Shown in pieces: positions 5,904 to 15,688 of a stretch of DNA of 64,000 bases; positions within the stretch are counted from its first letter, which is position 1; the number at the start of each line of letters is the position of its first letter. The stretch is taken from assembly GCA_039029375.1 (NCBI GenBank), contig JBCCGH010000003.1:63375-127374 (forward strand), read 5' to 3'. The notes beneath the pieces were generated by a model. That model saw only the letters and a program-made list of their open reading frames with translations. It was not told the DNA's origin and did no database searches. A program made the translations under genes and the position numbers. The stretch comes from Planctomycetota bacterium (GTDB lineage Bacteria; Planctomycetota; UBA1135; UBA2386).

Positions 5904-8900
5904 TCAGAACTCGACCTCTTCGCGATCGTCGGCGTTGGCGCCGTCCGCGGCCGCGCCTTCCTTGGCCCAGCGCGCGGCCTCGACGTGCTCGGCGACCCCA
6001 GCCACCGTCGGGCTTTGGAAGAAGGCGCGCAGCGGCAGATTGACTTCGTACACCTCGCGGACCCGTGTGCTGAGTCGCGTGCCGGTCAACGAATGCCCAC
6101 CGAGGTCGAAGAAGTTGTCGTGCAGCCCGACCTGATCGACGCCGAGCAGCTCCTCCCAGAAGCTGGCGATCTCGCGCTGCAGGTCGGTCTCGGGCGCGAC
6201 GTAGGCGTTGGGCAGGCTCGGCCGCGCCGCGGCCTCCATGCCGGACGGCGCCGGGGGCGGCGAGCCCGAGCTGCCATCCGACTCGTCGACCTCAAACCGC
6301 GTCAGCAAATCGCGCGTGGAGACGAAGACGCTCTTGAGGCCGGAGTGCAGCACGCGGGCGAACGCGTCGCGGCCCTCAGCCGGACGGATGCCCTTGCGCA
6401 GGAACTCCTCGCGCGCTTTGCGTAGCTCGGCGGGCACCTCGGTCTCGACCGCCATGCCGACCTCGTTCCAGGTATCCCAGGCCACCGACACGAACGGCGT
6501 GCGGGCGCCGCGGTCGGCGCTCAGGGGCAACAGATCGAGAAACGCATTGGCACCGGTGTAGTCAGCGGCGCCGAGGCCGCCGCGGACGCTGGCCAGCGAC
6601 GAGCACAGCGCAAAGAAGTCGAGGGGATCGCCGGCCAACAGCTCCTGCAGCAGCAGGGTTCCCGTGACCTTGGGCGCGAGCACCTCGGCGGCGGCCTCGG
6701 GCGTGCGCGCGACGATCAGGCCGCCGGTGGCGAGACCAGCCGCGTGCACGACGCCGCAGAACGGGCCAAAGCGCGCCCGCGCCGCGGTCAACGCAGCGTC
6801 GAGCGCCGCCCGATCCGTCATGTCGGCGGCGGCCACCATCACCTCGGCGCCCTGCGCCTCGAGCGAGCGCACGGCGGCAATCCGGCGACTCACCCGGTCC
6901 CTCTCGCCGTGCTCGGCAAGGTGGGCGTCCCACTGATCCGGCGCCGGCAGCCCTCCGCGTGACAACAACACGAGCTTGACGCCGCTGCGCTCAGCCAAGC
7001 CCGTGGCCAACGCCAGGCCGATCCCGCCCAAGCCGCCGGTGATCAGATACGTGCCGCCATCGCGCAGGCGCGGCGCCCGGGTCGGCGGCACCGGCAGACG
7101 CGTCGGCTCAAACGAAGGCAGCCAGCGGTGCGGGCCGCGATAGGCCGCGGCCGCGTCGGCGTCATCGCCTACAGCCGCGGCGCACTCGGCCAAGATCAAC
7201 TCAGCGGCCGCGACATGTTGGCCCGGGTCGAGGATCTCGCCGCCAAGATCCACGTGCCGCGTCGTCACCGTCGGCAGCTCCAGCGGCAACACCTTGGTCA
7301 GGCCCAGCACGGTGGCGCGCTCCGGCCGACGCGCTTCCCCGCCCAGCACGTCGAACAGCTGGTTGGTGACGACGGTCACCTGCACGCTCTCATGTTCGGG
7401 GAGGTCGGCGGCCACCTGACCGAGCGCGAGCAGGGTGTCGAAGCCCCCATCCTGTGGCGCCGCGGCGTCGGGGACCGCGCCGTTGCGACCGCTCGCGGCC
7501 AGCGCCTCGACATGCCAGAGATGCACGACGTGACCTACCGCAGCACCCTGTGACCGCAGCGCGGCGAACAGCTCATCCAGGTCGCGGCGCGAGCCGGGCC
7601 GCACGGCAAAGGCGCCATCGGCCTGCGCCGCAAAGCCGTCGCCGGGCCGCACCCGCGCCACCGGCCGGCCAGCTGCGGCCAGCCGCGCCGCCAGCGCGTC
7701 GCCGACGCCGAGCTCGTCCGCGAACACCAACCACGCGCCATCGCCATCGGGCAACGCGGGCGACAACGGCGCGCCGCGCCGAAACGACGGCACCCAAAAC
7801 CACTCGCCGACGTTGGCGTTCTTGACGAGCGCACCGCGATCGGCGCCGCGGCCGCCGTCGCGAGCAGGATCGACCCAGTAGCGCTGCCGTTGGAACGGAT
7901 AGGTGGGCAGGGGCAGGCGCCGGCGCCGACCGCCGTCCTGAAAGGCCTCCCAGTCGACGCGCACGCCGGCGAGCCACAGCCGGCCGAGCGCCTGCAGCAC
8001 GCACTGCTCGTCGGGGTCGTCGGCCTGCGGGTGACGCAACGAGGGGATCACCGCGCGGCCACCGGTCTCCTGGCCGTGCTGGCGCACCAGCGCCGACAGC
8101 GTCTGGCCCGGGCCGACCTCGAGCAACGCGCGGTCGGGATCATCGAGCAGCGCCCGCACGCCGTCACTGAAGCGCACCGGCTCGCGCAGGTTGAGCACCC
8201 AGTAGTCGGGGTCCGCCCACTGGTCCGGATCGATCCAGGTCCCCCACACCGTCGAGACACACGGGATCTGGGCCGGCCGCAACGTGACCTTCTGGACCGC
8301 GGCGCGAAACGGCTCGACCGCGGGCTCCATCATCGCCGAGTGGAAGGCGTGCGAGGTGTGCAGTCGCCGACACTGCACGTCGCGACCGGCCAGCTCCTGC
8401 TCGAACTTGGCCACCGCGTCGGTCGGGCCGGCGACGACGCAGAGTGCCGGCGCGTTCACCGCGGCGAGCGAAAGCGACGCTTTGAGCTGCGGCCGCACCT
8501 CGGCCTCGGACAGCGGCACGCTGGTCATCGCCCCTGGCGCCATCGACTGCATGAGCCGACCGCGCTCCGCGACCAGCCCAAGGGCGTCCTCGAGCGACAT
8601 CACGTCGGCCAAGCACGCGGCGACGTACTCGCCGACGCTGTGGCCGATCAAGGCGCTGGGCCGCACACCCCAGTGCTGCCACAGCCGCGCCAATGCGTAC
8701 TCGACCGCGAAGATCGCCGGCTGCGCCAGCCCGGTCTGCGCGAGGCGCTGGTGCGCAGCGTCGTCGACAGTGGCCGGAAACAGCGCCTCGCGCAGATCGG
8801 CGCCGAGCTGCGGCTGCAACAGCTCGGCGCACCGATCGATCTCGGCGCGAAACCGCGCCTCGTGTGCGTAAAGCTCCTGCGCCATGGCCGGATACTGCGC

Positions 8901-14311: not shown

Positions 14312-15688
14312 ATGACCACACCGCATCCCTACGAGGCCCAGAAGCGCGAGAACGACGCCAAGGTGCTCGCCGCCGAGCGTGCCGGCAGCGGCGTAGTCGA
14401 CGGTTGGCCCATGCACGCCGTGTTCGAGTTCACCGGCGCGTGCAACCTCCACTGCTTCATGTGCGGCTTCGAGATGCTGCGCGACGAGCTCCGCGACAAG
14501 GGCCAGACGCGCTTCACCTTGCCGATCGACATGTTTCGGCTCGTGGTGGAGCGCGCCTTCCCTCACATCCGCACGGTCAACCCGACCCTCGGCGGCGAGC
14601 CCCTCGTGCTGCCCTACTTCGACGAGCTGCTCGAAGCCGTGGCGCATTACGGCTGCAAGCTCGAGATGTTCACCAATGGTATGCTCCTGCGCGGCGAGCG
14701 AATGGAGAAGATGCTGCCACACGTCGCGCGGCTCACGGTGTCCTTCGACGGCGCCACCAAGGCCACGTTCGAGCACATCCGCACCGGCGCCAACTTCGAG
14801 CAGGTCGTGGACAACGTCGCACAGTTTGCGCGCCGACGCCGCGGGCTGGGCCTGCGCGATCAGCTGAAGTTCTGCTTCAACGTCGTGCTCATGCGCGAGA
14901 ACGTGCGCGAGCTGCCGGCCATTGTCGATCTGGCCGCGGCGCACGACGTCGAGTTCGTGTCGGCGTGCTACATCATCGAGACCGACCCCAGCCTGCGCGG
15001 CTCGCTGCCGACCCACTGTCCGGCGGAAACCAACGCGGCTCTGGCCGAGGCACGCGCGCGGGCCAAGGCCCATGGGATCGAGATCGAGTTCCCCGAGCCC
15101 CTCCCGGAAGACGCGCCGCCGCCGGCCGCAGCCGCGCCCCGGTCCGAGCCCCGGTCCGAGCCCCGGTCCGAGCCCCAATCCGAGCCCCAATCCGAGCCAC
15201 CGTCGACCAAGACAGCCGCCGCGACCAAGGCCGCCGCCCCAGAGGCCGCGCCAACCGCAGTGCCCACGGCGACGCCCGCCGAATTCCCAGCACCACCCGC
15301 CGAATTCGTCGTGCCCGAGCCCGCCTGCGCAGCCCCGGACGCGGGCGCCGTCGAGGAGCCGGCGCCGCGGCCGATGGCCCAACCCGCGGATTGGCGCGGC
15401 AAGTACTACTGCGACATGCCGTGGCGCCGCGTCTTCGTCGGGCTCGGCGGCGAGGTCTTCCCCTGCTGTGGGCCCGATCGGCCGATCCTCGGCAACGCGT
15501 TCGAGCAGGACTTCCAGACGATCTGGAACGGCGAAGAGTACCGCCGCCTACGCGAGGGGCTCTTCACCGGCAACCTGACGGACTACTGCGCCAAGTGTCC
15601 CTACCTGCAGAAGGCGGGGATGCTTCCGTATCAAGAACGTACGGAGCCGCGACAAAAACCGCCGGATTCGGCCGTCGCGGCGGAGTAA
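14312..15688 (+). CDS. Radical SAM protein with C-terminal SPASM/twitch-like Cys motifs and an internal Pro/Ala/Glu-rich insertion
   Basis: CxxxCxxC cluster: FTGACNLHCFMCGF. It has a TIM-barrel-type radical SAM core. The C-terminus reads YYCDMPW...FPCCGP...DYCAKCPY. A low-complexity linker of about 95 aa (PRSEPRSEPRSEPQSEPQSEP...) lies between the core and the Cys-rich tail. The start taken is ATG 14312. Confidence 0.85.
   Translation: MTTPHPYEAQKRENDAKVLAAERAGSGVVDGWPMHAVFEFTGACNLHCFMCGFEMLRDELRDKGQTRFTLPIDMFRLVVERAFPHIRTVNPTLGGEPLVLPYFDELLEAVAHYGCKLEMFTNGMLLRGERMEKMLPHVARLTVSFDGATKATFEHIRTGANFEQVVDNVAQFARRRRGLGLRDQLKFCFNVVLMRENVRELPAIVDLAAAHDVEFVSACYIIETDPSLRGSLPTHCPAETNAALAEARARAKAHGIEIEFPEPLPEDAPPPAAAAPRSEPRSEPRSEPQSEPQSEPPSTKTAAATKAAAPEAAPTAVPTATPAEFPAPPAEFVVPEPACAAPDAGAVEEPAPRPMAQPADWRGKYYCDMPWRRVFVGLGGEVFPCCGPDRPILGNAFEQDFQTIWNGEEYRRLREGLFTGNLTDYCAKCPYLQKAGMLPYQERTEPRQKPPDSAVAAE
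15137..15196 (+). repeat. 12-nt tandem repeat x5 inside the radical-SAM gene (encodes PRSE/PQSE x5)
   Basis: ccccggtccgag occurs 3 times, followed by ccccaatccgag twice, in frame. Confidence 0.95.

What the first reader, a model, noticed from the sequence alone, without database searches (positions are those of the whole stretch)
5904..15688. Minimal orphan hybrid NRPS-PKS (C-A-T + KS-AT-KR-T) predicted to build an N-acyl statine-like unit, with a divergent radical-SAM gene and no release domain
Two translationally coupled genes (ATGA overlap at 10529-10532) encode exactly one NRPS module and one PKS module.

Manual extraction of the A-domain code against GrsA-PheA gives D-A-W-F-L-G-H-V-V-K. 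This is one residue from the Leu code DAWFLGNVVK that I remember.

The AT domain has the malonyl-type HAFH motif. The KR domain has its Ser, Tyr and Asn residues.

Leu plus malonate plus ketoreduction would give 4-amino-3-hydroxy-6-methylheptanoate (statine). The N-terminal C domain would add an acyl group.

Oddities:
- The C domain core is HHSISEA where HHxxxDG is expected.
- The PKS carrier has a PCP-like GGHSL core.
- No TE, R or terminal C domain is present.
- No PPTase or MbtH gene was recognised.
- The only adjacent candidate tailoring gene is the divergent SPASM-like radical SAM gene, about 300 nt away.
Basis: partly seen in the sequence, partly recalled or inferred. Interest (0 to 1): 0.6.

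Follow-up and report, generated by a model that had tools for sequence, protein, structure and literature searches.

The report
Mid-line NRPS-PKS pair without partners
Two overlapping genes in an uncultured Planctomycete encode one peptide-synthetase module and one polyketide-synthase module that should turn a leucine-like amino acid into a statine-type unit, but their docking ends suggest they are a middle piece of a larger assembly line whose other parts are not nearby, so this is an ordinary module pair in an unusual, incomplete setting.

Summary
The sequence observation holds. Window 10529..13984(-) encodes C-A-T. Window 5904..10532(-) encodes KS-AT-KR-T. The two genes are joined by an ATGA overlap. 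The A-domain code is DAWFLGHVVK, the AT is malonyl-type, the KR is intact and the C3 motif is HHSISEA. No TE, R, PPTase or MbtH gene was found anywhere in the 64 kb window.

- The C domain resembles elongation (LCL-type) C domains, not starter C domains.
- The PCP-like GGHSL carrier core is the norm among the closest PKS homologues.
- Orthologues of the radical-SAM gene in four other loci are never next to NRPS or PKS genes.

Docking elements argue against a self-sufficient "minimal" line. The NRPS head (LSxxKRxLLxxLL) expects an upstream subunit. The PKS tail (DDREEVEF) is the kind of tail that, in nine fetched cases, precedes a TubC_N (beta-hairpin) C-starting subunit. In three related complete lines that subunit carries the TE. 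Neither partner is in the window.

A 67%-identical NRPS orthologue sits at a syntenic site in a related 8.07-Mb contig. It keeps the odd C3 block and the same pocket residues, shows purifying selection (dN/dS 0.35) and has no PKS beside it.

Verdict: a statine-type NRPS-PKS bimodule with unsatisfied ends, either part of a split cluster or an orphaned remnant. It is a new member of a known kind, of modest interest.

The parts
10529..13984 (-). NRPS gene, C-A-T, 1151 aa (the maximal ORF extends to a GTG at 14014). Identical to NCBI MEM7198917.1.
   Evidence: Pfam, translation, 100% hit P0154. GC3 is 0.90.
13862..13984 (-). N-terminal docking head, residues 1-41: ...KLQLSAKKRQLLQSLLGKEG.... It is of the 'LSxxKRxLLxxLL' type and has no TubC_N domain.
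   Evidence: The same head type follows subunits ending in 'LDxLSDEEVxxLL' in L082, L083, L089 and L090; 10 of 13 such tails are followed by this head. No PF18563 hit even at E<=10. The head is conserved in orthologue P0182, with dN/dS 0.21.
12491..13861 (-). Condensation domain, residues 42-498, elongation (LCL-like) type.
   Evidence: Pfam 321.7 bits. PDB phmmer scores: Txo2 365, Txo1 361, FscG 225, TycC6 207, against TycB 101, SrfA-C 82 and the SrfA-A starter C 77. Motifs C1, C2 and C4-C7 are canonical.
13436..13456 (-). Variant C3 active-site motif HHSISEA, followed by AA, where LCL domains have HHxxxDGWS.
   Evidence: It is identical in orthologue P0182 within a 19-aa identical run. An HHxxxE at a genuine C3 site occurs in no other of about 950 C3 motifs in 420 related proteins. 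Two motif scans of JGI metagenome contigs found nothing.
10976..12427 (-). Adenylation domain, residues 520-1003, code DAWFLGHVVK (Leu-like).
   Evidence: The pocket region is nearest to McyB 8hlk (130 bits, next hit 76), whose aligned residues are DAWFLGNVV. DAWFLGNVVK is the commonest Leu code (PMC12283262).
10697..10891 (-). Thiolation domain T1, core FFELGGNSL with Ser1060.
   Evidence: Pfam PP-binding 61.7 bits; motif.
10532..10687 (-). Arg-rich C-terminal tail of the NRPS (...RREDAKSRRESMRRRRERRVR...). It is the NRPS-to-KS junction element and ends in the ATGA overlap.
   Evidence: Similar basic tails precede KS-starting subunits in L082, L089 and L090. The same basic segment forms a covalent T-KS linker in a fused protein in L080. 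Overlap verified.
5904..10532 (-). PKS gene, KS-AT-KR-T, 1542 aa. Identical to NCBI MEM7198916.1.
   Evidence: Pfam, 100% hit P0001. GC3 is 0.89.
9366..10502 (-). Ketosynthase, residues 11-389, with Cys185, His320 and His360 present.
   Evidence: In the four homologue contexts that resolve this (P0044, P0083, P0056, P0065), the KS follows an NRPS-type carrier or module.
7965..8921 (-). Acyltransferase, residues 538-856, with GHSVG and HAFH (malonyl-type).
   Evidence: Reading HAFH as malonyl-specific rests on established AT motif rules (my own knowledge).
6462..7055 (-). Ketoreductase, residues 1160-1357. The Rossmann motif and the K, S, Y and N residues are present. It has neither the LDD motif nor the Trp fingerprint, so stereochemistry cannot be called.
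5982..6173 (-). Carrier domain T2, residues 1454-1517, core NFFDLGGHSL (PCP-like).
   Evidence: The same core type is found in nearly all close KS-AT-KR-T homologues.
5907..5930 (-). C-terminal short linear motif DDREEVEF*, preceded by ...AEHVEAARWA.... It is a candidate SLiM for a beta-hairpin (TubC_N) docking partner.
   Evidence: Homologous tails (...ETIRWA...DREEIEL*) occur in P0043, P0049, P0054, P0056, P0065 and others. In nine of nine cases in the fetched loci the next subunit, or in one case the next but one, begins with a TubC_N-type head. SLiM-betaHD pairing is described in PMC9113145 and PMC13324335.

Best explanation
The two genes are an internal, two-module segment of a multi-subunit hybrid NRPS/PKS assembly line. 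They are not a self-sufficient minimal line.

Proposed mechanism:
1. The A domain loads a Leu-like amino acid on T1.
2. The elongation-type C domain joins it to an acyl or peptidyl chain delivered by an upstream subunit. That subunit docks on the NRPS head (LSxxKRxLLxxLL).
3. The chain passes across the basic-tail/KS junction, which is a split T-KS linker.
4. The KS condenses the chain with malonyl-T2, loaded by the malonyl-type AT.
5. The KR reduces the beta-keto group. This gives a chain ending in a 4-amino-3-hydroxy-6-methylheptanoyl (statine-type) unit on T2.
6. T2 carries a C-terminal DDREEVEF motif meant to dock on a TubC_N/beta-hairpin head of a downstream C-starting subunit. In related complete lines that subunit is C-A-T-TE.

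Both partners, and a PPTase, are absent from the 64 kb window. I think they are most likely encoded elsewhere in the genome (a split cluster).

What is shown: domain content, motif integrity, the docking-motif classes and their partners in other loci, the absence of partners in the window, and conservation and selection on the NRPS.

What is inferred: the substrate identity, the order of steps, that the variant C domain is active, and that partners exist elsewhere.
For: - Domains and catalytic motifs are intact. The ATGA coupling is real.
- The pocket is one residue from the commonest Leu code and is closest to McyB.
- The C domain is much closer to solved elongation C domains than to a starter C domain.
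- Docking: the NRPS head matches heads that follow 'LDxLSDEEVxxLL' tails. The PKS tail matches tails followed by TubC_N heads in nine of nine cases.
- Complete relatives are organised as (betaHD)C-A-T | KS-AT-KR-T | betaHD-C-A-T-TE | PPTase.
- The NRPS head lacks TubC_N, so the PKS tail should not dock back onto it.
- NRPS orthologue P0182 is 67% identical. It is as conserved as the syntenic neighbours (HK 64%, ABC 53%) and keeps the same C3 block, pocket residues and head.
- dN/dS is 0.35 for the NRPS (C 0.35, A 0.30), against 0.44 and 0.38 for two neighbouring genes.
Against: - No partner subunit, TE or PPTase was found in 5.9 kb on one side and 48 kb on the other. I could not search the rest of the MAG.
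- The related genome has the NRPS without any PKS next to it, between IS110 and Y1 transposase genes. No PKS orthologue above 54% identity exists in the 5.8-billion-protein collection. The pair may therefore be decaying rather than working in trans.
- The docking assignments rest on motif co-occurrence in a few dozen loci, not on binding data.
- The C3 motif departs from HHxxxDG, so C-domain activity is unproven.
Confidence: 0.5

Rival explanations
1. Orphaned remnant. The two genes are what is left of a larger hybrid assembly line whose loading and terminating subunits were lost. They are still open reading frames but make no finished product.
For: - No partners, TE or PPTase in 64 kb.
- In the related genome the PKS is missing and the NRPS is flanked by transposase genes.
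- The PKS has no orthologue anywhere in the collection.
- The C3 motif deviates from the consensus.
- Long ORFs survive by chance in 70% GC DNA. For example, there is a 1048-aa antisense ORF at 7890..11036.
Against: - NRPS dN/dS is 0.35, no higher than the neighbouring chromosomal genes. The C domain is no more relaxed than the A domain.
- Every catalytic motif of eight domains is intact.
- The C3 block is a 19-aa identical run between orthologues that are only 67% identical overall.
- The docking head is conserved (dN/dS 0.21).
- GC3 of 0.89-0.90 is typical of real genes here.
Confidence: 0.25
2. This is a self-contained minimal NRPS-PKS. Either the C domain N-acylates Leu from an acyl-CoA or acyl-ACP and an unlinked hydrolase frees N-acyl-statine, or the C domain is unused and the free gamma-amine attacks the T2 thioester. 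In the second case 4-hydroxy-5-isobutyl-pyrrolidin-2-one is released with no release domain.
For: - The two genes stand alone and are co-translated.
- No other assembly-line gene lies in the window.
- Spontaneous five-ring lactam formation from gamma-amino thioesters is chemically easy (general chemistry, an inference).
Against: - The C domain is elongation-type, not starter-type.
- Conserved docking elements sit at both free ends and in other lines always face partner subunits.
- The orthologous NRPS persists without the PKS. That fits poorly with a two-protein unit being the functional entity.
- There is no acyl-activating enzyme or ACP nearby.
Confidence: 0.15
3. Closed-loop or iterative use. 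T2 hands its statinyl chain back to the N-terminal C domain of the NRPS, building oligo-statine chains.
For: - T2 is PCP-like.
- The only C domain available in the window is at the NRPS N-terminus.
Against: - The PKS tail is of the class that pairs with TubC_N heads, and the NRPS head has no TubC_N. The NRPS head belongs to the class that pairs with 'LSDEEV..LL' tails.
- The PCP-like core is generic in this clade.
- No release route exists.
Confidence: 0.03

Closest known systems
Statine-type NRPS-PKS module pairs: A(Leu/Ile/Val)-T followed by KS-AT-KR-ACP, as proposed for didemnin, burkholdac/thailandepsin, hapalosin, thalassospiramide and nosperin (summarised in PMC12081711)
   Same: An amino-acid module is followed directly by a malonyl-extending PKS module with an in-line KR. 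This predicts a 3-hydroxy-4-amino acid unit. Here the pocket is Leu-like, which would give statine itself.
   Different: In those pathways the pair is embedded in a full cluster with loading and releasing modules. Here the pair stands alone in 64 kb, in a Planctomycete MAG, and its C domain has a variant HHxxxEA motif. Even for the known cases the KR route is inferred from clusters and has not been shown experimentally (PMC12081711). Pepstatin uses a different, F420H2-dependent post-assembly reduction.
Uncharacterised metagenomic hybrid lines L089, L090 and L091: (TubC_N)C-A-T | KS-AT-KR-T | TubC_N-C-A-T-TE | PPTase (+ type II TE)
   Same: The gene order C-A-T then KS-AT-KR-T with overlapping stop and start is the same. 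So are the basic-tail/KS junction and the '...ETIRWA...DREEIEL' PKS tail. The PKS is 49-50% identical.
   Different: These lines are complete, with a downstream TE-bearing subunit and a PPTase. Their A codes read Gly-like and beta-Ala-like by my recollection of the code tables. Their C3 motifs are canonical.
SLiM / beta-hairpin docking (TubC_N, PF18563) pairs at carrier-to-C interfaces (EpoA-EpoB, TubB-TubC, rhabdopeptide, enacyloxin; PMC9113145, PMC13324335)
   Same: A short acidic C-terminal motif sits after the carrier domain of the PKS. It is of the kind that in related loci precedes TubC_N heads.
   Different: The beta-hairpin partner is missing from the window. Binding has not been tested.
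Microcystin synthetase McyB module 1 (PDB 8hlk)
   Same: It is the closest solved structure for the specificity-conferring stretch (130 bits). Eight of the nine aligned pocket residues are identical: DAWFLGNVV in McyB against DAWFLGHVV here.
   Different: Position 322 is Asn in McyB and His here. McyB is part of a large, complete assembly line.

Membership tests
NRPS elongation module (C-A-T) | Condensation, adenylation and thiolation domains in that order, with A core motifs A3, A5, A7, A8 and A10 and a carrier Ser | tested here: met
   Pfam; motifs found.
NRPS elongation module (C-A-T) | Canonical C3 active-site motif HHxxxDG | tested here: not met
   The motif is HHSISEA followed by AA. Both His residues are kept; Asp is replaced by Glu and Gly by Ala. 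The variant is unique among about 950 related C3 motifs apart from the orthologue.
LCL-type (elongation) C domain, subtypes as defined in PMC1894796 | Closer in sequence to LCL domains than to DCL or starter domains, with LCL-like motifs C1, C2 and C4-C7 | tested here: met
   phmmer against PDB: Txo1/2 361-365, FscG 225 and TycC6 207 bits, against TycB 101, SrfA-C 82 and the SrfA-A starter C 77 bits. The LCL/DCL/starter labels for these chains are my own knowledge. No formal phylogeny with curated subtype references was run.
Starter (lipo-initiation) C domain | Groups with starter C domains and sits at the start of the line with an acyl donor | tested here: not met
   It scores only 77 bits against the SrfA-A starter C, and CDA-C1 is absent at E<=1e-10. 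The head is of a type that follows carrier-ending subunits.
cis-AT type I PKS module KS-AT-KR-carrier | KS Cys-His-His, AT GHSxG plus a specificity motif, KR Rossmann motif plus Lys/Ser/Tyr/Asn, and a carrier Ser | tested here: met
Statine-type NRPS-PKS pair | An A-T module for an aliphatic amino acid immediately upstream of KS-AT(malonyl)-KR-carrier | tested here: met
Statine-type NRPS-PKS pair | The product contains a 3-hydroxy-4-amino acid residue | not testable with these tools
   This needs chemistry (LC-MS or NMR of a product, or intact-protein MS of T2).
Self-contained assembly line (biosynthetic gene cluster) | Loading function, release domain (TE, R or terminal C) and PPTase encoded with the modules | tested here: not met
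   None was found in 1..64000. The rest of the 167.6-kb source contig and the rest of the MAG could not be read.
SLiM / beta-hairpin docking pair | A C-terminal short linear motif on the carrier-ending subunit | tested here: met
   The tail DDREEVEF matches tails that precede TubC_N heads in nine of nine cases.
SLiM / beta-hairpin docking pair | A cognate TubC_N (PF18563) head on a downstream C-starting subunit | tested here: not met
   The NRPS head gives no PF18563 hit at E<=10, while a positive control scored 72.5 bits. No TubC_N motif occurs in six frames of the window.
Radical-SAM tailoring enzyme of this NRPS-PKS | Co-occurrence of its orthologues with NRPS or PKS genes | tested here: not met
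   Four orthologue loci (51-63% identity, three distinct proteins) have no NRPS or PKS within 10 kb. In the genome with the NRPS orthologue, the two genes lie about 3.8 Mb apart.

The most novel reading that the evidence does not exclude
The HHxxxEA(AA) condensation domain is a selectively maintained, lineage-specific non-canonical catalyst. The C-A-T protein works as a free-standing module in a dispersed, non-clustered Planctomycete assembly line. It is paired with a statine-forming PKS in this MAG and used without one in a related genome, so the same module would serve different partners recruited only through docking motifs.
Probability: 0.15. Interest if true: 0.55.

Novelty: new member of a known kind. 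Interest (0 to 1): 0.3.

Why it matters
If the pair is active, it would add a Planctomycete source to the list of statine-type (aspartic-protease-inhibitor pharmacophore) building blocks. It would also be a clear example of an assembly line held together by docking motifs rather than by gene clustering.

The conserved HHxxxEA motif is a natural experiment on how much of the HHxxxDG signature a working C domain needs.

For genome mining the lesson is practical. The terminal docking motifs, not only the domain list, tell whether a small NRPS/PKS locus can be complete. As it stands, a cluster finder would very probably flag this locus as an ordinary NRPS-T1PKS region.

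Tried and rejected
1. The genome-contig scan with the NRPS gave only generic 40-48% modules.
2. Exact look-ups of the window PKS and of P0001 returned nothing, so the rest of the 167.6-kb contig could not be fetched.
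3. I first suspected that the ~2630-aa homologues were fused C-A-T-KS-AT-KR-T versions. They are KS-AT-KR-T-C-A-T inside large lines.
4. The search of 1.84 billion representatives with the C domain was dominated by giant multi-C NRPSs. It was useless for finding orthologues, but their sequences served to count C3 variants.
5. Two degenerate DNA scans of JGI metagenome contigs for the HHSISEAA / HHxxxEAAALGVLFD block gave 0 hits.
6. The ORF at 15771..16529(+), next to the radical-SAM gene, is spurious by codon-position GC. The real genes there are two small minus-strand ORFs.
7. The best PKS homologue P0037 also has an FG-GAP neighbour and a ~1176-aa divergent NRPS. These proved unrelated: the NRPS is 43% identical and has a TubC_N head, and the FG-GAP proteins are not homologous.
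8. Literature searches for DAWFLGHVVK and for HHxxxE variants found nothing. PDB codes 8XJU, 8XJY and 8XJZ are not in the held papers.
9. KR stereochemistry cannot be called, because neither the LDD nor the Trp fingerprint is present.
10. I considered the closed-loop iterative model and rejected it on the docking mismatch.

Full report
**What is there**

The window is about 70% GC. The two proteins are identical to NCBI entries MEM7198917.1 and MEM7198916.1, from a Planctomycetota MAG contig of 167,620 bp. Pfam finds C(52-508)-A-T in the ORF 10529..14014(-) and KS-AT-KR-T in 5904..10532(-). The annotated NRPS start is the ATG at 13984, giving 1151 aa.

The minus strand reads ...GACGCATGAGCGAG..., so the NRPS stop TGA and the PKS start ATG overlap as ATGA at 10529-10532. 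Both genes have GC3 of 0.89-0.90, like the other real genes in the window.

**Domain details**

An independent check comes from PDB. The pocket stretch is by far most similar to McyB (8hlk, 130 bits; the next hit scores 76). The printed alignment puts DAWFLGNVV of McyB opposite DAWFLGHVV here.

DAWFLGNVVK is the commonest Leu code (PMC12283262). The exact variant with His recurs in a few unrelated NRPSs (P0164, P0170, P0237), interleaved with the Asn form among the closest A domains. The substrate is therefore probably Leu or a close aliphatic amino acid. That is inferred, not shown.

The other catalytic motifs are all present:
- KS: Cys185, HGTGT at 320 and NIGH at 357.
- AT: GHSVG at 630 and HAFH at 728.
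- KR: GGLGGIG, Lys1288, Ser1311/1312, Tyr1325 and Asn1329.
- Both carrier serines.

The KR has neither the LDD nor the Trp fingerprint, so the hydroxyl configuration cannot be predicted.

The PCP-like core NFFDLGGHSL of the PKS carrier is not an oddity. Nearly all of the ~100 closest KS-AT-KR-T proteins carry DNFF[DE]LGG[HDN]SL.

**The C domain**

C3 reads MHHSISEAAALG where LCL domains have MHHxxSDGWSxG. Motifs C1, C2 and C4-C7 are typical.

Against solved structures it scores as follows:

| Solved C domain | Bits |
|---|---|
| Txo2 | 365 |
| Txo1 | 361 |
| FscG | 225 |
| TycC6 | 207 |
| TycB | 101 |
| SrfA-C | 82 |
| SrfA-A starter C | 77 |

The assignment of these chains to LCL, DCL or starter types is from my own knowledge. 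On that basis this is an elongation-type domain, not a lipo-initiation domain.

Among about 950 genuine C3 motifs in 420 related proteins, none other than the orthologue below has Glu in place of the Asp. Ala in place of the Gly occurs in about 10% of them. No paper in the held library mentions an HHxxxE variant. Reviews give the second His a substrate-positioning role (PMC10510592). My recollection that the Asp is mainly structural is not from a tool result.

**Surroundings**

Pfam scans of the main ORFs over the whole window found no further NRPS, PKS, TE, R, PPTase, MbtH or carrier sequence. Six-frame motif scans also found none.

To the left lie a convergent TPR gene (4189..5871), an FG-GAP gene and an endo/exonuclease-phosphatase gene. 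To the right lie, in order:
- the divergent radical-SAM/SPASM gene (14312..15688);
- two small minus-strand genes (15795..16127 and 16272..16523);
- a HisKA_3 kinase and a NarL-type regulator.

Beyond these come unrelated genes.

**The radical-SAM gene**

It belongs to a Planctomycetota family of 45-63% identical proteins. At four loci (three distinct proteins) none has an NRPS or PKS within 10 kb. In the 8.07-Mb contig its orthologue P0121 sits beside an MbnB/TglH-like gene, about 3.8 Mb from the NRPS orthologue. The adjacency in the window is best read as incidental.

**An orthologue of the NRPS, but not of the PKS**

P0182 (1126 aa) is 67% identical over the full length. It lies in the 8.07-Mb contig downstream of the same Redoxin-ABC-unknown-histidine kinase block that occupies 23.5-29.3 kb of the window, in the same orientation. 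The kinase is 64% identical and the ABC protein 53%.

P0182 keeps the following:
- VCMHHSISEAAALGVLFDE exactly. This 19-residue identical run is the joint longest in the C domain.
- The same pocket residues, including the His.
- The same head and an Arg-rich tail.

Nei-Gojobori dN/dS is 0.35 for the NRPS (C 0.35, A 0.30, head 0.21). The neighbouring kinase gives 0.44 and the ABC gene 0.38. All values are inflated by the GC3 bias. The NRPS, including its odd C domain, has therefore been kept by selection.

In that genome the gene is followed by an FKBP gene and sits between IS110 and Y1 transposase genes. No PKS remnant is present. No PKS above 54% identity exists in the 5.8-billion-protein collection.

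**Docking ends**

This is what changes the interpretation. In fetched loci three junction types recur.

- Type A. Subunits ending in '...L..LD.LSDEEV..LL' are followed by C-starting subunits with the head '...LS..EKR.LL..LL' (examples; 10 of 13 tails). The window NRPS head KLQLSAKKRQLLQSLLGKEG, and that of P0182, is of this type.
- Type B. Subunits ending in '...ETIRWA...DREE[IVG]E[LIF]*' are followed by a TubC_N (PF18563) head. This holds directly for 8 of 9 such tails and next-but-one for the ninth. The window PKS ends ...AEHVEAARWA...DDREEVEF*. This matches the SLiM/beta-hairpin docking class described for carrier-to-C interfaces (PMC9113145; PMC13324335).
- Type C. NRPS carrier domains with a basic tail are followed by a KS with a short acidic head. 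In one fused protein the same basic segment is simply the T-KS linker. This is the window's ATGA junction.

The NRPS head has no TubC_N domain even at E<=10, while a control head scored 72.5 bits. The PKS tail therefore should not dock back on the NRPS.

Complete relatives read (betaHD)C-A-T | KS-AT-KR-T | betaHD-C-A-T-TE | PPTase, plus a type II TE. The window pair corresponds to the first two subunits of that pattern. It has a head waiting for an upstream donor and a tail waiting for a downstream, TE-bearing acceptor.

**Most likely mechanism**

Leu-like loading on T1 is followed by condensation with an incoming chain by the variant C domain. The chain is handed to the KS, extended with malonate and ketoreduced to a statine-type unit on T2. 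It then passes to a missing betaHD-C subunit.

I put 0.5 on 'mid-line segment whose partners are encoded elsewhere' and 0.25 on 'orphaned remnant'.

The split between the first two cannot be settled without the rest of the genome.
- Selection on the NRPS favours function.
- The PKS-less relative and the lack of any partner within 48 kb favour decay.

**Comparison with known systems**

An A(Leu/Ile)-T module followed by KS-AT-KR-carrier is the standard proposed route to statine-like residues in didemnin, burkholdac, hapalosin, thalassospiramide and nosperin (PMC12081711). The chemistry is therefore of a known kind.

Three things are unusual: the isolation of the pair, its Planctomycete host and the conserved HHxxxEA motif. 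I rate it a new member of a known kind, with interest 0.3.

**Limits**

- I could not read the remaining ~100 kb of the source contig or the rest of the MAG.
- No dedicated predictor (antiSMASH, NRPSpredictor2, NaPDoS) was available.
- The docking classes rest on motif co-occurrence in a few dozen loci, not on binding data.
- The GrsA reference fragment and several family attributions (LCL or DCL status of PDB chains, McyB substrate, Gly and beta-Ala codes) come from my own knowledge.

Noticed in passing
window 14312..15688 (+); L084 8668..11311: The radical-SAM/SPASM protein belongs to a Planctomycetota-restricted family that matches no NCBIfam model above cut-off. It has a long Pro/Ala/Glu-rich low-complexity insert (SEPRSEPRSEPQSEPQSEP...) between the radical-SAM core and the SPASM domain. 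In the 8.07-Mb relative its orthologue sits directly after an MbnB/TglH/ChrH-family gene, which hints at a peptide-modifying role.
   Followed up: partly
window 13984..29320 compared with L088 1..13381: A conserved block (Redoxin, ABC ATPase, unknown ~450 aa, histidine kinase ~554 aa) lies upstream of the NRPS in both genomes, but the 5-10 kb between the block and the NRPS differ completely. The window has an RPE65-like oxygenase, a two-component pair and the radical-SAM gene. The relative has BlaI/BlaR-like genes and an IS110 transposase. This is a variable island next to the NRPS.
   Followed up: partly
window 23559..25223 (-): A histidine kinase (HisKA plus HATPase_c) with an N-terminal stretch that hits the Arf small-GTPase family (31.6 bits, residues 65-159). 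Its orthologue in the relative is 64% identical.
   Followed up: no
window 7890..11036 (+), 10252..11598 (+), 15771..16529 (+): Very long antisense or out-of-frame ORFs (up to 1048 aa) overlap the NRPS and PKS genes and the region after the radical-SAM gene. By codon-position GC they are artefacts of the 70% GC composition, so ORF length alone is no evidence of a gene here.
   Followed up: yes
window 15795..16127 (-) and 16272..16523 (-): Two small, apparently real genes lie between the radical-SAM gene and the histidine kinase. One is a 110-aa protein of unknown function. The other is an 83-aa Cys-rich protein with CxxC...CPVCC motifs. Neither resembles an MbtH, carrier or thioesterase protein.
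   Followed up: partly
window 33287..36112 (+) and 49877..52621 (+); also 36370..37908 (-) and 45918..47378 (+): Two Ser/Thr protein kinases are fused to other domains, one to TPR repeats and one to an FGE-sulfatase domain. A further FGE-sulfatase-domain protein and a sulfatase are nearby.
   Followed up: no
window 56026..58763 (-): An actin-like ATPase (weak MreB/Mbl and Salactin hits) lies near a ParA-like AAA_31 ATPase, with an unannotated 267-aa ORF between them. This may be a segregation or cytoskeletal module.
   Followed up: no
L089 3946..7473: In one complete relative a stand-alone 497-aa C-domain protein itself ends in ADREEIEI. It is separated from the next TubC_N-headed subunit by a GDSL lipase gene, so the SLiM tail also occurs on a free-standing C domain.
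   Followed up: no
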